DNA from: an uncultured Erysipelotrichaceae bacterium | GTDB lineage: Bacteria; Bacillota_I; Bacilli_A; RF39; UBA660 | NCBI GenBank assembly: GCA_963535465.1 | Contig: CAUSWF010000003.1 | Location: forward strand, 38,112 to 102,111 | Direction: 5' to 3' | DNA length: 64,000 nucleotides | Shown: positions 13,872 through 64,000 of the stretch, one piece after another | Layout: each line of letters starts with the position of its first letter | Numbering within the stretch: the first letter of the stretch is position 1 | Translations under genes and position numbers: made by a program | The notes under the pieces: generated by a model | Databases searched by the model: none | Told to the model about the DNA's origin: nothing | The model's input: the letters and a program-made list of their open reading frames with translations, nothing else

Positions 13872-14015
13872 TACACCTCCTCATTTAGGAGTGCCATAAA
13901 AAAGGTTCTTCACGCGAAGAACCTCTTTATCTATAAAAAGTTCCTCGGTAGGATTTATTTATATACCTACTGTCTATGGCACCAATAAATTAAAACTATT
14001 ATATACAACTATTTT
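13872..14015 (-). promoter_or_regulatory. Probable L10 (rplJ) autoregulatory leader RNA
   Basis: 144-nt untranslated region upstream of rplJ. Contains a long-range stem GUGCCAUAG...CUAUGGCAC and a perfect internal hairpin GUUCUUCGCGUGAAGAAC, consistent with L10-leader architecture in Firmicutes. Confidence 0.45.
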
Positions 14016-34917: not shown

Positions 34918-35160
34918 AAAAAAAGACTATAACATAAGGACGAATAACCGCGGTACCACCTTATTTTATAGTCATACTATACACTCTTTAGTTAACGCCT
35001 ACCACGTCTATATCTACATATCGATATAGCAGTTCAAAAGCCATCCAAAATATTATCTAATATCCTTCTCACCAAACAGGACTCTCTTAAATTAAATTAA
35101 TATCTCTCTCTTTTTCAAAACATTTATACAAAAACTATAACTCATAATTTACCTAAATGC
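34918..35160 (-). promoter_or_regulatory. T-box riboswitch leader of metG
   Basis: The minus strand contains the canonical T-box sequence AAUAAGGUGGUACCGCGG (plus strand 34945-34966). It is followed by a terminator T-run immediately upstream of the metG RBS. Confidence 0.6.
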
Positions 35161-45427: not shown

Positions 45428-45874
45428 CTAATTTCTTTTATTTTCAAAGAATTTAGACATCAATTCAAAAGATTTATCCACAGCTAAATTTGTTTCAAAA
45501 TTTACTTTAGAATTTATATCATCGTTTAAAAAAATTTTATTAACAATAAAATTATTAAGTTCATTTTGACCATTAAGTGCAGAATAAACATTTTTTATTC
45601 TAGATTGTTTAATAGCACTAGCACACATAGGACATGGATCAAGAGTAACATATATATCACAATCATCTAGCCTCCAGTTATTTAACTTCTTAGAAGCTTC
45701 TGATATTGCTATTAGCTCAGCATGAGATAAAGAACACTTATTACTTTCCTTTAAATTATAAGCTTTAGCAATAATTTGATTGTTATAAACAATAACCGCA
45801 CCAACAGGTACTTCATTATTATTAAAAGCAATATAAGCTTGTTCAAAAGCAACATCCATAAACTCTTTTTTCAT
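45428..45874 (-). CDS. tadA: tRNA-specific adenosine deaminase
   Basis: HAE (SHAELIAI) and PCxxC (DPCPMCASAI) deaminase motifs. Start set to the internal Met (MKKEFMD) preceded by GGAGA. The 28-codon upstream extension in the ORF track overlaps a structured RNA. Confidence 0.9.
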   Translation of the reverse strand: MKKEFMDVAFEQAYIAFNNNEVPVGAVIVYNNQIIAKAYNLKESNKCSLSHAELIAISEASKKLNNWRLDDCDIYVTLDPCPMCASAIKQSRIKNVYSALNGQNELNNFIVNKIFLNDDINSKVNFETNLAVDKSFELMSKFFENKRN

Positions 45875-45884
45875 ATTATCTCCA

Positions 45885-45975
45885 TATAAAAAGTGCACAT
45901 GAAAGTTGAATTTTAAGGCTGCTGTCTTCCAACTCTGACCTGGTTCAATCGCTTTCATTGCACGATTAAATTATA
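45885..45975 (-). ncRNA. ffs: Signal recognition particle RNA (small 4.5S-type), probable
   Basis: Minus strand reads GUGCAAUGAAAG-CGA-UUGAA-CCAGGUCAGAGUUGGAAGACAGCAGCC-UUAAAA-UUCAA-CUUUCAUGUGCAC. Closing helices pair, and the apical part carries the conserved domain-IV signature (CAGGUC...GGAAG...AGCAGC). Synteny with B. subtilis tadA-scr-dnaX. Confidence 0.5.
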
Positions 45976-46009
45976 TATTATTATCCTCAGTTTGTAAAAT
46001 TATTATTCA

Positions 46010-46027
46010 ATGTTTCACGTGAAACAT
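46010..46027. promoter_or_regulatory. parS site 1 (perfect palindrome ATGTTTCACGTGAAACAT)
   Basis: 16-bp core TGTTTCACGTGAAACA equals the ParB/Spo0J parS consensus. Confidence 0.8.
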
Positions 46028-46160
46028 AATATCTATACTGAGAATAGTACAAAAATAAATAAACATAATATCAATATTTTAATCACATCAAACTAAATTA
46101 CAAAATATCATAATAAATATAATTAAAATTTTAACCAAAATTAATTTTATCTCTTTTAAA

Positions 46161-46178
46161 TTATTTCCCGGGAAATAA
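46161..46178. promoter_or_regulatory. NBS-type site 1 (perfect palindrome TTATTTCCCGGGAAATAA)
   Basis: Core ATTTCCCGGGAAAT equals the B. subtilis Noc-binding-site consensus. The perfect palindrome extends to 24 bp (AAATTATTTCCCGGGAAATAATTT, 46158-46181). Confidence 0.75.
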
Positions 46179-46197
46179 TTTAAGTTATAAATAAAGA

Positions 46198-46215
46198 ATG
46201 TTTCACGTGAAACAT
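46198..46215. promoter_or_regulatory. parS site 2 (perfect)
   Basis: ATGTTTCACGTGAAACAT. The perfect palindrome extends to 22 bp (GAATGTTTCACGTGAAACATTC, 46196-46217). Confidence 0.8.
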
Positions 46216-46308
46216 TCAGTTTACCAAATTAAAATAAAAATAATTCAAAAATAAGTATAATATATAAATTAAAAATTGATATTATTCTAACGGTTATTAA
46301 TTATAAAA

Positions 46309-46326
46309 TTATTTCCCGGGAAATAA
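46309..46326. promoter_or_regulatory. NBS-type site 2 (perfect)
   Basis: TTATTTCCCGGGAAATAA. Perfect 24-bp palindrome at 46306-46329. Confidence 0.75.
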
Positions 46327-46401
46327 TTTTAATAATAATATAGAAAAAAATTAAAAAATAATAATATTTGAAATTATATATAATTTTATTAATCAATATA
46401 T

Positions 46402-46419
46402 ATGTTTCACGTGAAACAT
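46402..46419. promoter_or_regulatory. parS site 3 (perfect)
   Basis: ATGTTTCACGTGAAACAT. Confidence 0.8.
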
Positions 46420-46553
46420 TAAATCCATACTGAGAGTGGTATGAAAATAAGTAAACATAATATTAATATTTTAATAATATCAAACTAAATTATAAAATAT
46501 CATAAATAAATATGATTAAAATTTTAATCAAAATTAATTTTACCTTCTTTAAA

Positions 46554-46571
46554 TTATTTTCCAGGAAATAA
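46554..46571. promoter_or_regulatory. Degenerate NBS-type site (TTATTTTCCAGGAAATAA)
   Basis: Positional homolog of NBS site 1 in repeat unit 2. Two substitutions destroy the CCCGGG core and the symmetry. Confidence 0.5.
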
Positions 46572-46590
46572 TTTAAACTATAAATAAAGA

Positions 46591-46608
46591 ATGTTTCACG
46601 TGAAACAT
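46591..46608. promoter_or_regulatory. parS site 4 (perfect)
   Basis: ATGTTTCACGTGAAACAT, flanked GAATG...CATTC as in site 2. Confidence 0.8.
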
Positions 46609-46700
46609 TCTGTTTGCTAAATTAAAATAAAGATAATTTAAGAATAAGTATAATATAGAAATTAAAAATTGATATTATTCTGCAGTTATTAAGTATAAAA

Positions 46701-46718
46701 TTATTTCCCGGGAAATAA
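46701..46718. promoter_or_regulatory. NBS-type site 3 (perfect)
   Basis: TTATTTCCCGGGAAATAA. Confidence 0.75.
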
Positions 46719-46790
46719 TTTTAATAATAATATAGAAAATCTAAAAATAATAATAAATTGAAATTAATATAATTTAATTAATCGATATAT

Positions 46791-46808
46791 ATGTTTCACG
46801 TGAAACAT
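46791..46808. promoter_or_regulatory. parS site 5 (perfect)
   Basis: ATGTTTCACGTGAAACAT. Confidence 0.8.
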
Positions 46809-46882
46809 AGTAAGGTTATATAACAATAAAAATATATAAATTAAAGATTTAACATAATAGTTAATAACTGTATCTTATTAAA

Positions 46883-46900
46883 TTATTTCCCGGGAAATAA
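46883..46900. promoter_or_regulatory. NBS-type site 4 (perfect)
   Basis: TTATTTCCCGGGAAATAA. Confidence 0.75.
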
Positions 46901-46917
46901 TTTAATATAATAAAATA

Positions 46918-46935
46918 ATGTTTCACGTGAAACAT
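46918..46935. promoter_or_regulatory. parS site 6 (perfect)
   Basis: ATGTTTCACGTGAAACAT. Confidence 0.8.
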
Positions 46936-46985
46936 TATAAAAAATATTCACAACTGATAAAAAGACTTTAAAACATTAATATTAA

Positions 46986-47011
46986 ATAAAAAAATGAAGC
47001 CTACGCTTCAT
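46986..47011 (-). terminator. gyrA terminator overlapping the stop codon
   Basis: ATGAAGCctacGCTTCAT hairpin. On the minus strand it is followed by TTTTTTT. Confidence 0.55.
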
Positions 47012-52621: not shown

Positions 52622-53086
52622 CTAATTGCTACTTCTTTTATAGTTTTCTATTCTTGTTCTCATAATTAAGTCTAATCTTGATGCTCTATTGACTTGATTT
52701 TCTATAGATCTAAAGCTACATGGAACTATTAATTCCTTACCATTATCAAAATAAATTATAGTGTTTATAGCGTCAATTTTTTTAAAAGATTTAATTCTTT
52801 TTAAATTAATCCATATACAATCATCGGAAAAAGGCGAAGTTGTAGGAAAAACTATCAAATTATCTCTATCTTGTACTATTATAGGTACTTTATATTCTGC
52901 ACCTAACATTGCTTTTGCACTCTCCTTTCTTCCCGCATAAGTACTTCCAAAATATCTACAAGAATCTTCCATAATTTGATATGGTTTTTCTGAAATCATA
53001 TATCTAGTATCATCTTCATAAACCAAACTTGAATTATTATCTGTTGGAACTATTGCTAAAGTCCCATTATTAATTTCATATTTCAT
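52622..53086 (-). CDS. comK: Competence transcription factor ComK-family protein
   Basis: 154 aa. Colinear with the B. subtilis ComK core (IMEDSCRYFGSTYAGRK vs IVDRSCRFFGSSYAGRK, PIIVQDRDNLIVFPTTS vs PIMVDPSNQIFLFPTLS, FENQVNRASRL vs FENQVYRTAWL). Confidence 0.8.
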   Translation of the reverse strand: MKYEINNGTLAIVPTDNNSSLVYEDDTRYMISEKPYQIMEDSCRYFGSTYAGRKESAKAMLGAEYKVPIIVQDRDNLIVFPTTSPFSDDCIWINLKRIKSFKKIDAINTIIYFDNGKELIVPCSFRSIENQVNRASRLDLIMRTRIENYKRSSN

Positions 53087-54472: not shown

Positions 54473-55855
54473 TTAAACACCTCCTATACTATTTTTTAAT
54501 TCATCTATAATTTTAGCTAAATCTTTATTTATTTTTATCTCTTTATCAATCTTATCAACAGAATGCATAACAGTAGAATGGTCTTTACCACCAAATTCCA
54601 TTCCTATAGTAGGAAATGATTTATCAGTCATACATCTACATAAATACATTGCTACTTGCCTAGGAAATGCTATACTACTACTCCTCTTCTTACTTCTAAT
54701 ATCATCAAATGATATTTGAAAATAATCAGATACTATTTTTTGTATTCTCTGTATATCATCTTTTTGACTAAATCCTTTTTTAACATAATCTTTTAAAGCT
54801 TCTTGAGCAAGTGCTAAATTAATTGGAGCACCACCCATAACTGTAGAATATACACAAAGTCTGTTAATAGAACCTTCCAATTCTCTTACATTAGAACCTA
54901 TATTAGAAGCAATGAAATCAATAACTTCATCAGGTATAGGAATATCTTTATCCAATTCAGCACCTTTTATTTTACTTTTTAAAATATCTCTCCTTAAATC
55001 AAATCCAGGAGGATTAATAGGAATAGGCAATCCCCAAGAAAATCTTGTCTGTAATCTTTCTTCTAAAACCTTCAAATCATTCGGTGATCTATCAGAAGTA
55101 ATTACTATTTGTTTACTATTATCATATAAATTAGTAAAAGTATTAAAAAACTCTTGTTGAGATTGATTAGCTTTACCCAAAGCTTGGATATCATCTATCA
55201 TTAAAATATCTACATCTCTATATTTTTTCTTAAAAAAATCAATATAAGTAAAATTATTAGAATCGCCTGATTTTCTATGTGTTTTAACAAAATCATCAAT
55301 AAATTGTTCACTAGTAACATATAAAACTCTTTTATTGCTATTTTTAAATATATAATTACCAATTGCATGCATCAAATGAGTCTTCCCTAACCCACTATTA
55401 CCATATATAAATAGTGGATTGTATATTGTTCCAGGACTTTTTGCAACAGTCTTCGCTGCATTTTCAGCAAATTTATTTTGTTGTCCTACAACGAAATTTT
55501 CAAAAGTATAATCTTTGTTCAAATTAGTTGATTCATAAGAATATTCTTTTTTTTCCTCAACTTCATTATTATCAACTTTTAAAGTATTATGTATTTTCTC
55601 AGCTTCTAGTTCTTCTTGTAAATAATATTCTAAAGTATAAATATTTCCAGTTAGTGATTTTAATATATCAATAATAGTATTATTATACCTATCTTTTAAA
55701 GCATTTTTTTGTGATTGCATTTCAACTTGTATTATTAATACATCACCATTTTCCTTAATGAATTTAGTTTTTTCAAACCAATATCCATATAAAGCGGGAC
55801 TGGTAGTTTCTTTTATTTGTTCCAACATTTTAGTCCAAACAATATTCATATCCAT
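54473..55855 (-). CDS. dnaA: Chromosomal replication initiator DnaA
   Basis: 460 aa. AAA+ Walker A GNSGLGKTHL and box VII present. C-terminal DnaA signature region (FGGKDHSTVMHS). Confidence 0.97.
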   Translation of the reverse strand: MDMNIVWTKMLEQIKETTSPALYGYWFEKTKFIKENGDVLIIQVEMQSQKNALKDRYNNTIIDILKSLTGNIYTLEYYLQEELEAEKIHNTLKVDNNEVEEKKEYSYESTNLNKDYTFENFVVGQQNKFAENAAKTVAKSPGTIYNPLFIYGNSGLGKTHLMHAIGNYIFKNSNKRVLYVTSEQFIDDFVKTHRKSGDSNNFTYIDFFKKKYRDVDILMIDDIQALGKANQSQQEFFNTFTNLYDNSKQIVITSDRSPNDLKVLEERLQTRFSWGLPIPINPPGFDLRRDILKSKIKGAELDKDIPIPDEVIDFIASNIGSNVRELEGSINRLCVYSTVMGGAPINLALAQEALKDYVKKGFSQKDDIQRIQKIVSDYFQISFDDIRSKKRSSSIAFPRQVAMYLCRCMTDKSFPTIGMEFGGKDHSTVMHSVDKIDKEIKINKDLAKIIDELKNSIGGV

Positions 55856-61581: not shown

Positions 61582-62209
61582 TGAAGAGTTTATTTTTGAA
61601 CTAGAAAAATTAGGTATAGAAGTAAATAATGAAAAATTAGATAAATTAGAAAAATTTTATAATCTATTAATAGAGTGGAATAATAAAATAAATTTAACTA
61701 GAATAACTTCAAAACAAGATGTATATCTAAAACATTTCTATGATAGTTTAACACTAATAAAAGTAATAGACTTAAATAAAATATCTACACTTTGTGATGT
61801 TGGAACAGGAGCAGGATTTCCTGGGATAGTCCTAAAAATATTTTATCCAAATCTAAATATAACCTTAGTTGATTCTTTATTAAAAAGAGTAAAATATCTA
61901 AATACAGTAATAAAAGAACTAGACTTAGAAAATATAGTCGCAATTCATAGTAGAGCAGAAGATATAAAAGAAAAATATGATATCGTAACCGCAAGAGCAG
62001 TTGCTAATATAGAAAAATTATTAACGTATACAATGCATCTATTAAAAAAAGATGGTAAATTAATTGCTATGAAAGGCAACATAGAAGACGAAATGACTAA
62101 AGAGGTACAAGAAAAAATTTCTAAAAAATATAATATTGAAAATATATTAAGATTTTATTTACCAAAAGAAAATTCTAACAGATCTTTAGTAATAATAAAA
62201 AACAAATAA
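61574..62209 (+). CDS. rsmG: 16S rRNA (guanine527-N7)-methyltransferase
   Basis: 211 aa. DVGTGAGFPG SAM motif. Confidence 0.9.
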   Translation: MTNEEFIFELEKLGIEVNNEKLDKLEKFYNLLIEWNNKINLTRITSKQDVYLKHFYDSLTLIKVIDLNKISTLCDVGTGAGFPGIVLKIFYPNLNITLVDSLLKRVKYLNTVIKELDLENIVAIHSRAEDIKEKYDIVTARAVANIEKLLTYTMHLLKKDGKLIAMKGNIEDEMTKEVQEKISKKYNIENILRFYLPKENSNRSLVIIKNK

Positions 62210-62228
62210 ACTCCAACAGGAGTTTTTT
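62210..62228 (+). terminator. terminator after rsmG
   Basis: ACTCCaacaGGAGT followed by TTTTTT. Confidence 0.5.
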
Positions 62229-62264: not shown

Positions 62265-62293
62265 TTGAAAGTATAAAAGCAATGTTCTATAAT
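62265..62293 (+). promoter_or_regulatory. Consensus sigma-A promoter of the noc-like gene
   Basis: TTGAAA, 17-nt spacer, TATAAT. Located 33 nt upstream of the start codon. Confidence 0.5.
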
Positions 62294-62325
62294 TAAGTAT
62301 AAGATAGAAAAGAATGGGGTAAAAT

Positions 62326-63477
62326 ATGAATGAAGTAAGAGATGAAATAACACAATTATATTTAGATGACATAATACCTAATAGATTTCAACCACGTGAA
62401 ATATTTGATGAAAAAGCATTAAAAGAATTAGCAGCATCTATAAAAGAACATGGTGTTATTCAACCAATTATAGTAAGAAATATAGGCGGGAAATATGAAA
62501 TTATCGCAGGAGAAAGAAGATATAAAGCAAGTGCCTTAGCAGGACTTACTAAAATACCAGCTATAATTAGAAATTTAGATGATAAAGAATCATCAAAAGT
62601 AGCCCTATTAGAAAACTTACAAAGAAAAGATTTAAATGCAATAGAAGAAGCAAGAACTTATCAAAAAATATTAGAACTAGATGAAATGACTCAAGAAGAA
62701 CTAGCAAAAACGATGGGTAAGAGTCAATCCGCAGTAGCTAATAAAATAAGATTATTATCTTTACCTGATGAAATTCAAACTGCACTTCTAAAAGAACAAA
62801 TATCAGAGCGTCATGCAAGATCACTATTAAATATTCCAAATTCAGCAGAACAAATTGAAATGTTGAAAAAAATAATAACTAACAAACTAAGTGTGAGACA
62901 ATTGGAGGCAGAATTGAAAGCAAAAGAAGAACCAAAAGAAATAGCATCATCAGCACAAATAAATACTAATCCATTAACACCAGATGCAAATCTATTAACA
63001 TCTTCTAATCCATTTGGAGAAATCAAAATAGCTCCTCCAACTGAAAATGAAGAAATAGAACCAATCGATTTTTCATCTGAAGAAGATGATGAAGAAGAAA
63101 ACGACGAAAAATTTAATGATATTTCTATCCCATCAATTGACGAAGTAAAAGCAAATACAGAAGATGTTGGAACACAAAATAATTTTAATCTAGATAGTTT
63201 ATTAAATATAAACACATTAAATCAACATAAAACAACTGCAGAAAAAATCATAGAAAATGATGACGAAAAACATAATGTAGTAGAAGAAAATTATTTTCAA
63301 AGTCCAGATTTTACAGTTATTCCAACGCCTAAAGAAGAACCAGTTTATACATTAGAAACAGGAAAAGAAAAATTATTAGAAGTAATAAACGAATTAAAAT
63401 CTAAAGGTTTAAGAATAGATGTTCAACAAATGGACTTAACAAATACATTCCAAATAATAATAAAACTAGAAAAGTAA
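62326..63477 (+). CDS. noc: ParB-family CTPase paralog at the noc position, with Noc-type specificity residues, no N-terminal membrane-targeting segment and a long acidic disordered C-terminal tail
   Basis: ParB N-domain motifs (IPNRFQPR, GERRYKA). HTH helix GKSQSAVANKIRLLSLP...ERHAR. At the four recognition positions 0, +6, +11 and +28 it has Q, K, S, R. As I recall the B. subtilis sequences, Noc has Q, K, K, R and Spo0J has R, H, T, G. The C-terminal 180 aa are low-complexity and acidic (SSEEDDEEENDE). Gene order is rsmG-noc-soj. Confidence 0.75.
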   Translation: MNEVRDEITQLYLDDIIPNRFQPREIFDEKALKELAASIKEHGVIQPIIVRNIGGKYEIIAGERRYKASALAGLTKIPAIIRNLDDKESSKVALLENLQRKDLNAIEEARTYQKILELDEMTQEELAKTMGKSQSAVANKIRLLSLPDEIQTALLKEQISERHARSLLNIPNSAEQIEMLKKIITNKLSVRQLEAELKAKEEPKEIASSAQINTNPLTPDANLLTSSNPFGEIKIAPPTENEEIEPIDFSSEEDDEEENDEKFNDISIPSIDEVKANTEDVGTQNNFNLDSLLNINTLNQHKTTAEKIIENDDEKHNVVEENYFQSPDFTVIPTPKEEPVYTLETGKEKLLEVINELKSKGLRIDVQQMDLTNTFQIIIKLEK

Positions 63478-63563: not shown

Positions 63564-64000
63564 ATGGGAAAGATAATATCATTAGTAAATCAAAAAGGTG
63601 GAGTAGGAAAAACAACAACTAGTATAAATTTAGCAGCTTCACTAGGATATTATGGTAAAAAAGTATTATTAGTTGACCTAGATCCACAAGGTAATACGAC
63701 AACAGGAATAGGTATAAATAAAGGAAAAATAACATATAACTTGTATGATGTATTAATAGGAGCATGTAATATAAAAGATTCGATTATAGTTACAAAATTC
63801 AAAAACTTATCAGTATTACCAGCAAGTATTAATTTATCTTCATTAGAAGCAGACTTGAGAGATAAATCAGATATTATAGGGTTAAGAGGAGAACAACTAA
63901 AACATAATTTAAGTGAAGTAAAAGATGATTATGATTATATAATAGTTGATTGTCCACCAACACTATCAATATTGATAACAAATGCCTTAACAGCATCTGA
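63564..64000 (+). CDS. soj: ParA-family chromosome partitioning ATPase Soj (3' end beyond window)
   Basis: Deviant Walker A KGGVGKTT in MGKIISLVNQKGGVGKTTTSINLAA. Open to the end of the window. Confidence 0.9.
   Translation, partial: MGKIISLVNQKGGVGKTTTSINLAASLGYYGKKVLLVDLDPQGNTTTGIGINKGKITYNLYDVLIGACNIKDSIIVTKFKNLSVLPASINLSSLEADLRDKSDIIGLRGEQLKHNLSEVKDDYDYIIVDCPPTLSILITNALTAS

What the first reader, a model, noticed from the sequence alone, without database searches (positions are those of the whole stretch)
62326..63477. Noc-type ParB paralog lacking the membrane-targeting N-terminus and carrying a 180-aa acidic disordered tail
The ParB-family gene at the noc position (rsmG-noc-soj) has Q, K, S, R at the four DNA-specificity positions of the recognition helix and following loop (GKS-Q-SAVAN-K-IRLL-S-...-R-HAR). 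This is three of four Noc-type residues (Q, K, K, R, as I recall B. subtilis Noc) and none of the Spo0J-type set (R, H, T, G). That is consistent with recognition of the CCCGGG-core palindromes in the array. Two differences from B. subtilis Noc stand out. The protein starts only about 17 aa before the IPNRFQPR motif, so it lacks the N-terminal amphipathic membrane-binding segment. An in-frame stop lies 3 codons upstream, so no extension is possible. It also ends in a long acidic low-complexity region (EEDDEEENDE). A Noc-like DNA-binding clamp without membrane tethering would not perform classical nucleoid occlusion. It may instead cooperate or compete with ParB at the interleaved array.
Basis: partly seen in the sequence, partly recalled or inferred. 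Interest (0 to 1): 0.6.

Follow-up and report, generated by a model that had tools for sequence, protein, structure and literature searches.

The report
Noc variant without membrane anchor
This gene encodes a true relative of the bacterial "nucleoid occlusion" protein Noc that lacks Noc's membrane anchor and has a long acidic flexible linker, and its DNA sites alternate with chromosome-partition sites next to the replication origin, so it probably works differently from textbook Noc.

Summary
The 383-aa ORF at 62326-63477 is real and sits in rsmG-noc-soj; identical contigs show a canonical spo0J/parB after soj. It belongs to the Noc lineage. PDB and NCBIfam matches favour Noc over ParB, and a tree groups it with Bacillaceae Noc against ParBs (97/100). 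The specificity residues are Q134, K140, S145, R162, a set published mutagenesis predicts to be NBS-specific. Four perfect 16-bp NBS sites lie in the window.

The missing N-terminal membrane-targeting helix is confirmed. No upstream extension is possible, and no cationic amphipathic segment replaces it.

The "180-aa acidic tail" is wrong. It is a ~135-aa acidic disordered linker (net charge -26) with five short conserved islands, followed by a folded Noc-type C-terminal dimerisation domain.

This is not a one-off. At least 147 cluster representatives and 79 species genomes of uncultured low-GC Bacilli share the short N-terminus, the long linker (279-798 aa total) and Q-K-x-R with x never K.

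In this clade, NBS and parS sites alternate in the gyrA-tadA spacer near oriC: the window, at least 120 metagenome contigs, and 5 of 5 relatives chosen blind.

Most likely it is an NBS-loaded CTP clamp in a mixed ParB/Noc origin complex, without direct membrane tethering. This is a new variant of a known kind.

The parts
62208..62225 (.). Hairpin (terminator-like) after rsmG. It separates rsmG from the noc-like gene.
62265..62293 (+). Sigma-70-like promoter TTGAAA-17-TATAAT (11 of 12 matches) about 30 bp upstream of the start codon.
   Evidence: This is a consensus match only, not evidence of function.
62320..62322 (+). In-frame TAA two codons upstream of the ATG. An in-frame ATG at 62314 runs straight into it. 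No N-terminal extension is possible.
62326..63477 (+). Noc-lineage ParB/Noc-family gene, 383 aa plus stop.
62344..62622 (+). N-terminal CTPase domain (ParB_N, residues 7-99). It includes GERRYKA (62509-62529) and ENLQR (62611-62625), whose G62-E63-R64-R65 and E96, N97, Q99, R100 are invariant across the aligned Noc and ParB proteins (L98 varies).
   Evidence: pLDDT 80-91.
62626..62928 (+). HTH DNA-binding domain (residues 101-201). Specificity codons: Q134 at 62725-62727, K140 at 62743-62745, S145 at 62758-62760, R162 at 62809-62811.
   Evidence: The fold matches the Noc DBD-NBS complex 6y93 (TM 0.88-0.89).
62929..63336 (+). Acidic disordered linker (residues 202-337): 34 D+E against 8 K+R. 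Short islands conserved in the near clade: N..PL.P, G....APP, LD.LLN.N, T.AEKI, YF..PD.
63337..63474 (+). Noc-type C-terminal dimerisation domain (residues 338-383): one helix and two strands.
   Evidence: pLDDT 85-92.
63564..64000 (+). soj/parA, cut by the window end. In contigs that encode the identical Noc-like protein with the same gene order it is followed by a 295-aa canonical spo0J/parB.
45975..47000 (.). Origin-proximal spacer between gyrA and the SRP RNA/tadA genes. It holds six perfect parS sites (46011, 46199, 46403, 46592, 46792, 46919). These alternate with four perfect NBS sites (46163, 46311, 46703, 46885) and one decayed NBS (46556). The NBS sites are the presumed loading sites of this protein.

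Best explanation
The gene encodes a member of the Noc lineage of ParB-family CTPases. It belongs to a large, undescribed subfamily in uncultured low-GC Bacilli.

Shown here:
- It has the CTP-binding N-terminal domain and a Noc-type recognition helix (Q, K, S, R).
- It has a Noc-type C-terminal dimerisation domain.
- It has no N-terminal membrane-targeting helix.
- The DNA-binding and dimerisation domains are joined by a ~135-aa strongly acidic disordered linker.
- Perfect NBS sites alternate with perfect parS sites in the gyrA-tadA spacer about 8-10 kb from oriC.

Inferred:
- Dimers nucleate on those NBS sites, bind CTP, close into sliding clamps and spread.
- The origin-proximal centromere therefore carries a mixed ParB/Noc nucleoprotein complex.
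- The protein has no amphipathic anchor, so it does not tether DNA to the membrane by itself. It does not act by the classical Noc mechanism.
- Any coupling to division, replication or segregation would go through partners that bind the short conserved linker motifs. Alternatively the bulky acidic linker acts as a steric or electrostatic brush around the origin domain.
For: Family placement:
- The best PDB sequence matches are Noc (210 bits) rather than Spo0J (173 bits).
- TIGR04285 nucleoid_noc scores 281 bits, against 239.5 bits for the co-resident ParB.
- The best structural matches are Noc 7nfu and the Noc-NBS complex 6y93.
- In an NJ tree with outgroup ParBs, subfamily plus canonical Noc form a clade in 97 of 100 bootstraps. 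B. subtilis Spo0J groups with the clade's own ParBs.
- Synteny is rsmG-noc-soj-spo0J.

DNA specificity:
- The residues are Q, K, S, R.
- Published data say Q173 and R201 plus one K at 179 or 184 suffice for NBS binding (PMC7383237).
- Four perfect NBS sites occur against 0.13 expected.
- Eleven perfect NBS sites occur in about 1 Mb of relatives' loci.

Clamp parts:
- The GERR residues and E, N, Q, R of the ENLQR motif are invariant.
- The CTD is folded.

No membrane anchor:
- The N-terminus is 17 acidic residues.
- No MTS-like peptide occurs in any frame.
- The 20 strongest amphipathic 11-mers all lie in the folded domains, none in the linker.

Selection:
- The same architecture occurs in 147 representatives and 79 species loci.

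Array link:
- They also occur in 5 of 5 relatives chosen only by DnaN similarity. Three of these show a complete short-N, long-linker Noc and one a partial long one.
Against: - No biochemistry was done. CTP binding, clamp closure, NBS preference and the absence of membrane binding are all inferred.
- Only about 72 kb of this genome was seen, so NBS sites may also be scattered around the chromosome as in B. subtilis.
- Some relatives have single NBS sites outside the array.
- The linker islands are conserved only in the near clade, in about 20% of subfamily representatives. A universal partner motif is therefore not supported.
- A partner protein could still supply membrane attachment.
Confidence: 0.6

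Rival explanations
1. It still performs classical nucleoid occlusion. Membrane attachment comes from a partner protein or from a cryptic membrane-binding element in the linker, rather than from an N-terminal helix.
For: The gene is kept at the noc position with intact NBS specificity in hundreds of lineages. The linker carries conserved short motifs typical of docking sites. In B. subtilis a heterologous anchor can replace the native helix (PMC4331003), so the anchor need not be N-terminal or native.
Against: The linker has net charge -26 and none of the 20 strongest amphipathic 11-mers lies in it. The motifs are not conserved across the subfamily. In the 72 kb seen, NBS sites are concentrated at one origin-proximal spot rather than scattered.
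Confidence: 0.2
2. Its main job is control of replication initiation or origin-region transcription. This would resemble the role reported for S. aureus Noc in restraining DnaA-dependent initiation.
For: The sites lie about 8-10 kb from dnaA/oriC. S. aureus Noc restrains initiation independently of simple site binding (PMC5540599). In about 10 relatives one NBS sits about 100 bp upstream of mnmG, near a promoter-like element.
Against: No NBS lies within the dnaA-dnaN or rpmH-dnaA intergenic regions of the window (up to 2 mismatches). Strict alternation with parS points to the partition complex rather than to DnaA boxes.
Confidence: 0.12
3. It is a decaying, functionless Noc remnant: the N-terminus is truncated and the linker is drifting.
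For: The defining helix is lost. The linker varies greatly in length and composition (279-798 aa total).
Against: The NTD and DBD are about 55-86% identical across 150 representatives, with invariant catalytic and specificity residues. The CTD is conserved. Among 47 near-identical variants there are no frameshifts, and only 7% of domain positions vary against 13% in the linker. Perfect cognate sites are maintained.
Confidence: 0.03
4. It is the organism's only ParB and serves as a bifunctional partition protein.
For: None beyond family membership.
Against: A 295-aa ParB follows soj in contigs that encode the identical Noc-like protein. It has the LGRGLEDLF ParA-interaction motif and R...G specificity residues. 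Six perfect parS sites are present.
Confidence: 0.01

Closest known systems
Nucleoid occlusion protein Noc of Bacillus subtilis and Geobacillus thermoleovorans (PDB 7nfu, 7ng0, 7ol9, 6y93; NCBIfam TIGR04285)
   Same: - Same gene position (rsmG-noc-soj-spo0J).
- Same CTPase N-terminal domain.
- Same HTH fold, with Q and R specificity residues and K at position 179.
- Same 16-bp NBS sequence, TATTTCCCGGGAAATA.
- Same type of C-terminal domain.
- Groups with it in a tree against ParBs (97/100).
   Different: - No membrane-targeting helix alpha-1, no helix alpha-2 and no spacer. The protein starts almost where the engineered NocN-delta-26 construct starts.
- Position 184 is S (N, S, T, A or G across the subfamily), not K.
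- The basic segment before the CTD (KPKPRRKAFSRDTR) is replaced by an acidic linker about 100 aa longer.
- It scores below the TIGR04285 cutoff (281 against 315).
- The NBS sites seen are clustered and alternate with parS, rather than scattered.
Chromosomal ParB/Spo0J (for example B. subtilis Spo0J, PDB 6sdk)
   Same: Same overall NTD-DBD-linker-CTD clamp architecture and CTP motifs. Its sites are origin-proximal and clustered, like parS.
   Different: The specificity residues are Noc-type, not R...G. There is no N-terminal LG(R/K)GL ParA-stimulating peptide. The CTD sequence differs. A genuine ParB is encoded two genes downstream.
Engineered B. subtilis NocN-delta-10 and G. thermoleovorans NocN-delta-26 truncations (Adams et al. 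2015; Jalal et al. 2021)
   Same: They lack the same N-terminal segment. NocN-delta-26-delta-CTD still adopts the NTD-engaged, ParB-CTP-like conformation (PMC8429893).
   Different: Those are laboratory constructs, and NocN-delta-10 is non-functional for nucleoid occlusion. This is a natural form under purifying selection, and it has an added long acidic linker.

Membership tests
Noc (nucleoid occlusion protein, ParB/Noc family) | ParB-type N-terminal CTPase domain with the GERRxRA and ENLQR motifs | tested here: met
   Pfam ParB_N at 1.5e-35. G62-R65 and E96, N97, Q99, R100 are invariant in the alignment with Noc and ParB.
Noc (nucleoid occlusion protein, ParB/Noc family) | NBS-type specificity residues Q173, K179, K184, R201 (Jalal et al. 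2020) | tested here: met
   Q134, K140 and R162 are present; position 184 is S145. The published rule, Q plus R plus at least one K at 179 or 184, is satisfied. The full four-residue signature is not: the subfamily never has K at 184.
Noc (nucleoid occlusion protein, ParB/Noc family) | N-terminal amphipathic membrane-targeting helix (about aa 1-15, MKHxFSRFFGLGEK). It is described as extremely conserved in all Noc examined and as necessary for function. | tested here: not met
   The helix is absent: the N-terminus is 17 aa with net charge about -4. It is absent in 147 representatives and 79 loci. There is no upstream coding potential. None of the 20 strongest amphipathic 11-mers lies in the linker.
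Noc (nucleoid occlusion protein, ParB/Noc family) | Noc-type C-terminal dimerisation domain | tested here: met
   Residues 338-383 align with the B. subtilis Noc C-terminus. They are predicted as helix-strand-strand with pLDDT 85-92.
Noc (nucleoid occlusion protein, ParB/Noc family) | Gene position rsmG(gidB)-noc-soj-spo0J, with a separate ParB | tested here: met
Noc (nucleoid occlusion protein, ParB/Noc family) | Curated NCBIfam TIGR04285 score cutoff (315 bits) | tested here: not met
   The window protein scores 281 bits and B. subtilis Noc 373.7 bits. The shortfall arises because the long linker interrupts the match to the C-terminal 46 model positions. The model does not cover the MTS.
Noc (nucleoid occlusion protein, ParB/Noc family) | Descent from the Noc branch of the ParB duplication | tested here: met
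   In the NJ tree of NTD+DBD with four outgroup ParBs, Noc monophyly has 97/100 support, the subfamily 99/100 and the canonical group 100/100. Canonical sampling was Bacillaceae only.
Noc (nucleoid occlusion protein, ParB/Noc family) | Cognate NBS sites in the genome, scattered over the chromosome except the terminus | tested here: inconclusive
   Perfect NBS sites are present and far above chance. All of them in the about 72 kb seen are clustered in one spacer. The genome-wide distribution cannot be seen with this window.
Noc (nucleoid occlusion protein, ParB/Noc family) | CTP-dependent membrane binding and inhibition of division over the nucleoid | not testable with these tools
   This needs liposome co-sedimentation, localisation and genetics.
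Chromosomal ParB/Spo0J | parS-type specificity residues (R173, G201) and the N-terminal LG(R/K)GL ParA-interaction peptide | tested here: not met
   The window protein has Q134 and R162 and no such peptide. The downstream 295-aa ParB has both features.

The most novel reading that the evidence does not exclude
This subfamily shows an alternative, possibly ancestral, way of being Noc. In this reading Noc is a second centromere-binding CTP clamp that co-assembles with ParB on alternating NBS and parS sites next to oriC. It has no membrane tether, and it uses a long acidic disordered linker as a brush or partner-docking arm. Membrane-tethered nucleoid occlusion would then be a later innovation of Bacillales-type Noc. 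The ParB-to-Noc transition would have passed through a centromere-associated paralogue.
Probability: 0.25. Interest if true: 0.8.

Novelty: new variant of a known kind. Interest (0 to 1): 0.62.

Why it matters
Noc is the textbook nucleoid-occlusion factor of Firmicutes. Its accepted mechanism rests on an N-terminal amphipathic helix reported as conserved in all homologues examined.

A large natural lineage of Noc proteins lacks that helix yet keeps NBS specificity, the CTPase fold and the dimerisation domain. This shows that membrane tethering is not a universal property of the family.

The conserved alternation of NBS and parS sites beside the origin gives a concrete, testable setting for several questions:
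- How do two paralogous CTP clamps share, block or reinforce each other on one stretch of DNA?
- What does a 100-500-aa disordered linker do to clamp function?
- How did Noc evolve from ParB?

There is also a practical point. These proteins fall below the curated Noc HMM cutoff and are annotated only as generic ParB.

Tried and rejected
- **Upstream exon, alternative start or frameshift giving a membrane helix.** Rejected: there are stops in all frames, the intergenic region carries a promoter and a hairpin, and no MKxxFSRFF-like peptide occurs anywhere in the window.
- **A relocated membrane-targeting helix in the linker or at the C-terminus.** A hydrophobic-moment scan found that the 20 strongest amphipathic 11-mers are all in folded domains. 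The linker is strongly anionic.
- **A universal linker motif across the subfamily.** LDxLL-type and YFxxPD-type motifs exceed shuffled controls, but they occur in only about 20% and about 5% of representatives respectively. They are clade-specific. My linker boundaries there were approximate.
- **Intramolecular docking of linker motifs.** A second AlphaFold run with a 76-sequence alignment still gave a disordered linker with three tiny helices.
- **First NJ tree.** It had only three groups and so could not show which were sisters. I repeated it with outgroup ParBs transcribed from PDB alignments.
- **Species identification.** The genome-contig scan did not return the window's own species; the best hit was 57% identical over the full length. 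The organism is known only as an uncultured low-GC Bacilli lineage related to Ca. Onthousia and Clostridium sp. CAG:417.
- **Sole bifunctional ParB.** Rejected.
- **L208.** The gene next to rsmG there is not noc, so that locus says nothing about Noc type.
Full report
**Setting.** The window is an origin region. GC skew changes sign near 56 kb. dnaA lies at 54473-55855 (-), followed by dnaN, a ComK homologue, recF, gyrB and gyrA on the minus strand. On the plus strand the order is rnpA, yidC, jag, mnmE, mnmG, rsmG, the gene in question, then soj. GC content is about 26%. The gene order mirrors the B. subtilis origin region.

**The observation.**
- The ORF 62326-63477 (+) encodes 383 aa. Pfam finds ParB_N (residues 7-99) and HTH_ParB (residues 101-200).
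- An in-frame TAA lies two codons upstream. An in-frame ATG at 62314 runs directly into it. The spacer to rsmG holds a hairpin (62208-62225) and an 11/12 sigma-70-like promoter (62265-62293).
- No frame upstream, and no place in the window, encodes a peptide resembling the Noc membrane-targeting sequence.
- So the short N-terminus is real.

**Family placement.**
- Sequence search of the PDB ranks Noc first (7nfu 210 bits, 7ng0 209, 7ol9 188), ahead of Spo0J/ParB (173 and below).
- NCBIfam TIGR04285 (nucleoid_noc) gives 281 bits, below its cutoff of 315. B. subtilis Noc scores 373.7 and the organism's own ParB 239.5. The match stops at model position 209 of 255 because the long linker interrupts it. 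The model starts at B. subtilis residue 29, so it does not test for the membrane helix.
- The AlphaFold model best matches Noc 7nfu (TM 0.75-0.78 on the target, 53% identity). Its DNA-binding domain matches the Noc-NBS co-crystal 6y93 (TM 0.88-0.89, rmsd 1.4-1.7).
- I built a neighbour-joining tree of the NTD+DBD region from 11 subfamily members, 6 Bacillaceae Nocs, 5 ParBs of the same clade and 4 ParBs from PDB alignments. Noc monophyly has 97/100 support. B. subtilis Spo0J groups with the clade's ParBs. The alternative groupings were found 0 times.
- The protein therefore descends from the Noc branch. It is not an independent ParB duplicate.

**Specificity residues.**
- Alignment with genuine B. 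subtilis Noc (P0271, retrieved) gives Q134, K140, S145, R162. Canonical Noc has Q, K, K, R, and the co-resident ParB has R, M, T, G.
- Jalal et al. 2020 (PMC7383237) showed that Q173 reads adenine 1 and R201 reads cytosine 6 of NBS. They also showed that a single lysine at 179 or 184 is sufficient to license binding. Q-K-S-R therefore satisfies the published rule for NBS preference.
- The DNA agrees. The window holds four perfect copies of ATTTCCCGGGAAAT, each a perfect 16-mer TATTTCCCGGGAAATA, where 0.13 are expected. These account for every CCCGGG in the 64 kb.

**The N-terminus.**
- Canonical Bacillaceae Nocs (118 sequences) begin MKHPFSRFFGLG and have 36-56 residues (median 47) before the PNRFQPR motif. 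The window protein has 17, and they are acidic (MNEVRDEITQLYLDDII).
- It begins within four residues of where the engineered G. thermoleovorans NocN-delta-26 construct begins.
- Adams et al. 2015 (PMC4331003) reported extremely high conservation of aa 1-15 in all Noc homologues examined. They also reported loss of membrane binding and of function in NocN-delta-10.
- Jalal et al. 2021 (PMC8429893) showed that the helix is the CTP-regulated membrane anchor.
- A hydrophobic-moment scan finds that the 20 strongest amphipathic 11-mers all lie in the folded domains, none in the linker.

**The "tail" is a linker.**
- Two AlphaFold runs (12 and 76 aligned sequences) agree. Residues 7-201 are folded (pLDDT about 80-93). 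Residues about 202-337 are disordered (pLDDT 35-64), with three tiny helices. Residues about 340-383 form a confident helix plus two strands (pLDDT 85-92).
- The last 46 residues align with the Noc C-terminal domain: GLRIDVQQMDLTNTFQIIIKLEK against GVKLNTEEEEFEEYIQLTIRIPK.
- The linker has 34 D+E against 8 K+R (net -26).
- It replaces the short basic segment KPKPRRKAFSRDTR that precedes the CTD in canonical Noc.
- Within the near clade the linker contains five conserved islands: N..PL.P, G....APP, LD.LLN.N, T.AEKI and YF..PD. Across the whole subfamily these motifs occur in only about 5-20% of representatives.

**It is a subfamily, not an oddity.**
- The exact protein and 98-99% variants occur on hundreds of metagenome contigs, including human oral and gut samples.
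- A full scan of 1.84 billion cluster representatives with residues 1-200 returned 150 best hits at 55-86% identity. Of these, 147 carry a recognisable motif.
- In those 147, the pre-motif length is 9-31 aa (median 16). The few longer ones look like over-extended start calls.
- Total length is 279-798 aa (median 466).
- The specificity pattern is Q-K-x-R in nearly all, with x = N, S, T, A, G, Q, V or M and never K.
- Seventy-nine species-level genomes show the same pattern. They are labelled uncultured Bacilli, Bacillales, Erysipelotrichaceae or Tenericutes, Ca. Onthousia, or Clostridium sp. CAG:417.
- Among 47 near-identical variants there are no frameshifts. Variable positions make up 7.5% of the NTD+DBD, 13% of the linker and 6.5% of the CTD.
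- This is purifying selection on the domains with a faster-evolving linker. It is not decay.

**A separate ParB exists.** In contigs that encode the identical Noc-like protein with the same gene order (L001-L004), soj is followed by a 295-aa ParB. That ParB has the N-terminal LGRGLEDLF ParA-interaction motif, R...G specificity residues and a ParB-type CTD. The refutation condition "only ParB homologue in the genome" is not met.

**The DNA sites.**
- The 1-kb spacer lies between gyrA (3' end at 47001) and the SRP RNA gene (45878-45974), followed by tadA and dnaX. It reads parS-NBS-parS-NBS-parS-nbs*-parS-NBS-parS-NBS-parS. There are six perfect 16-bp parS sites, four perfect NBS sites and one decayed copy, built from a duplicated unit of about 392 bp.
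- No other site with up to 1 (NBS) or 2 (parS) mismatches occurs in the window or in the 8.5 kb beyond it in L001-L004.
Nearly all are low-GC and place mixed clusters between gyrA and tadA/dnaX. Their gyrA is 52-81% identical to the window's, so many species are represented.
- That scan demands a pair by design, so I made an independent test. I took five relatives chosen only by DnaN similarity (76-80% identity across the listed relatives) and contig length. All five carry mixed parS/NBS clusters in the same spacer, and almost no sites elsewhere in 21 kb.
- Of those five, three encode a complete short-N, long-linker Noc (447-499 aa; QKGR, QKAR, QKSR). A fourth encodes a partial 491-aa one. In the fifth the gene next to rsmG is something else.
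- Across the 126 loci examined (the 125 fetched plus the window), adjacent sites alternate 378 times and repeat 113 times. After removing one forced pair per locus, alternation is still 69% against about 50% expected.

**Mechanism.**
- Shown: a Noc-lineage protein has all the clamp parts, lacks the anchor, and has cognate sites interleaved with parS next to oriC across a clade.
- Inferred from the established behaviour of ParB and Noc (PMC8429893, PMC7383237): it nucleates at NBS, binds CTP, closes at the NTD gate and slides. The origin-proximal centromere is then coated by both paralogues.
- Inferred from NocN-delta-10 (PMC4331003): it does not bind membrane by itself and does not act by the classical crowding-at-the-membrane mechanism.
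- What the acidic linker does is open. It may enlarge the clamp lumen, repel DNA or membrane, act as a steric brush, or display docking motifs.
- I put 0.6 on this overall picture. I would put higher (about 0.8) on the narrower claim that it is an NBS-binding Noc-lineage clamp without an intrinsic membrane anchor.

**Rivals.**
- Occlusion through a partner-supplied anchor: 0.2.
- Replication or transcription control at the origin, by analogy with S. aureus Noc (PMC5540599): 0.12.
- A decaying gene: 0.03.
- A sole bifunctional ParB: refuted.

**Literature.** Five full-text searches found the canonical Noc papers. They found no description of a Noc lineage without the N-terminal helix, or of alternating NBS/parS clusters. 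The library does not cover subscription journals, so absence there is not proof of novelty.

**Verdict.**
- The protein fails one defining Noc feature (the membrane helix) and the curated HMM cutoff. It meets the rest and belongs phylogenetically to Noc.
- It is best filed as a new variant of a known kind.
- It is of real interest to the ParB/Noc field, mainly because the variant is widespread and comes with a conserved composite NBS/parS centromere.

Noticed in passing
window 45975-47000; also L084-L208: Perfect parS and perfect NBS sites alternate in the gyrA-tadA/dnaX spacer. This holds in the window, in at least 120 metagenome contigs, and in 5 of 5 relatives chosen only by DnaN similarity. 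Adjacent sites alternate 378 times and repeat 113 times. Centre-to-centre spacing peaks at 25-29 and 35-38 bp, roughly 2.5 and 3.5 helical turns. The window's array is built from a duplicated unit of about 392 bp.
   Followed up: partly
L042-L066, for example L043 3231-3244: In about 10 relatives with shorter-linker Noc, a single perfect NBS lies about 100 bp upstream of mnmG. It sits in a ~1-kb mnmE-mnmG spacer, just upstream of a TATAAT-like element of the mnmG-rsmG(-noc) unit. It could be a loading site or an autoregulatory site.
   Followed up: partly
window 45878-45974 (-): A bacterial small SRP RNA gene (Rfam RF00169, 51 bits) overlaps the 5' end of the mechanically listed tadA ORF (45428-45958). 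The true tadA start is probably further downstream. The SRP RNA gene forms one boundary of the array.
   Followed up: no
window 52622-53086 (-); L001-L003 and L204-L208: A ComK-family protein (about 150 aa) is encoded between dnaN and recF in this organism and in all relatives examined. This is an unusual insertion into the otherwise conserved dnaA-dnaN-recF-gyrB block.
   Followed up: no
window 63190-63213 (residues 289-296) and relatives: The most conserved linker island, (A)DLDxLLNIN, loosely resembles the ParB N-terminal LG(R/K)GLExLF ParA-interaction motif. It lacks the preceding basic residues. This is an idea only and was not tested.
   Followed up: no
NCBIfam TIGR04285, compared with P0271: The curated Noc HMM starts at B. 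subtilis Noc residue 29, so it does not cover the membrane-targeting helix. All subfamily members tested score 274-293 bits, below the 315 cutoff. Public annotation therefore calls them generic ParB/RepB/Spo0J proteins.
   Followed up: yes
P0185, P0253, P0270 (subfamily representatives): Some subfamily members have linkers of about 500-550 aa. These are low-complexity sequences (N-rich, or P/Q/T/S-rich) lying between intact DBD and CTD, and total length reaches 798 aa.
   Followed up: partly
window 34933-35127 (-) and 13888-13997 (-): A T-box leader lies upstream of metS, and an L10 leader lies upstream of rplJ. Both are ordinary.
   Followed up: no
L137 and L189: Two metagenome loci with NBS-parS pairs have a much higher GC content (0.38 and 0.48) than the rest. 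L189 has the pair upstream of tadA-dnaX. Paired sites may therefore extend beyond the low-GC clade.
   Followed up: no
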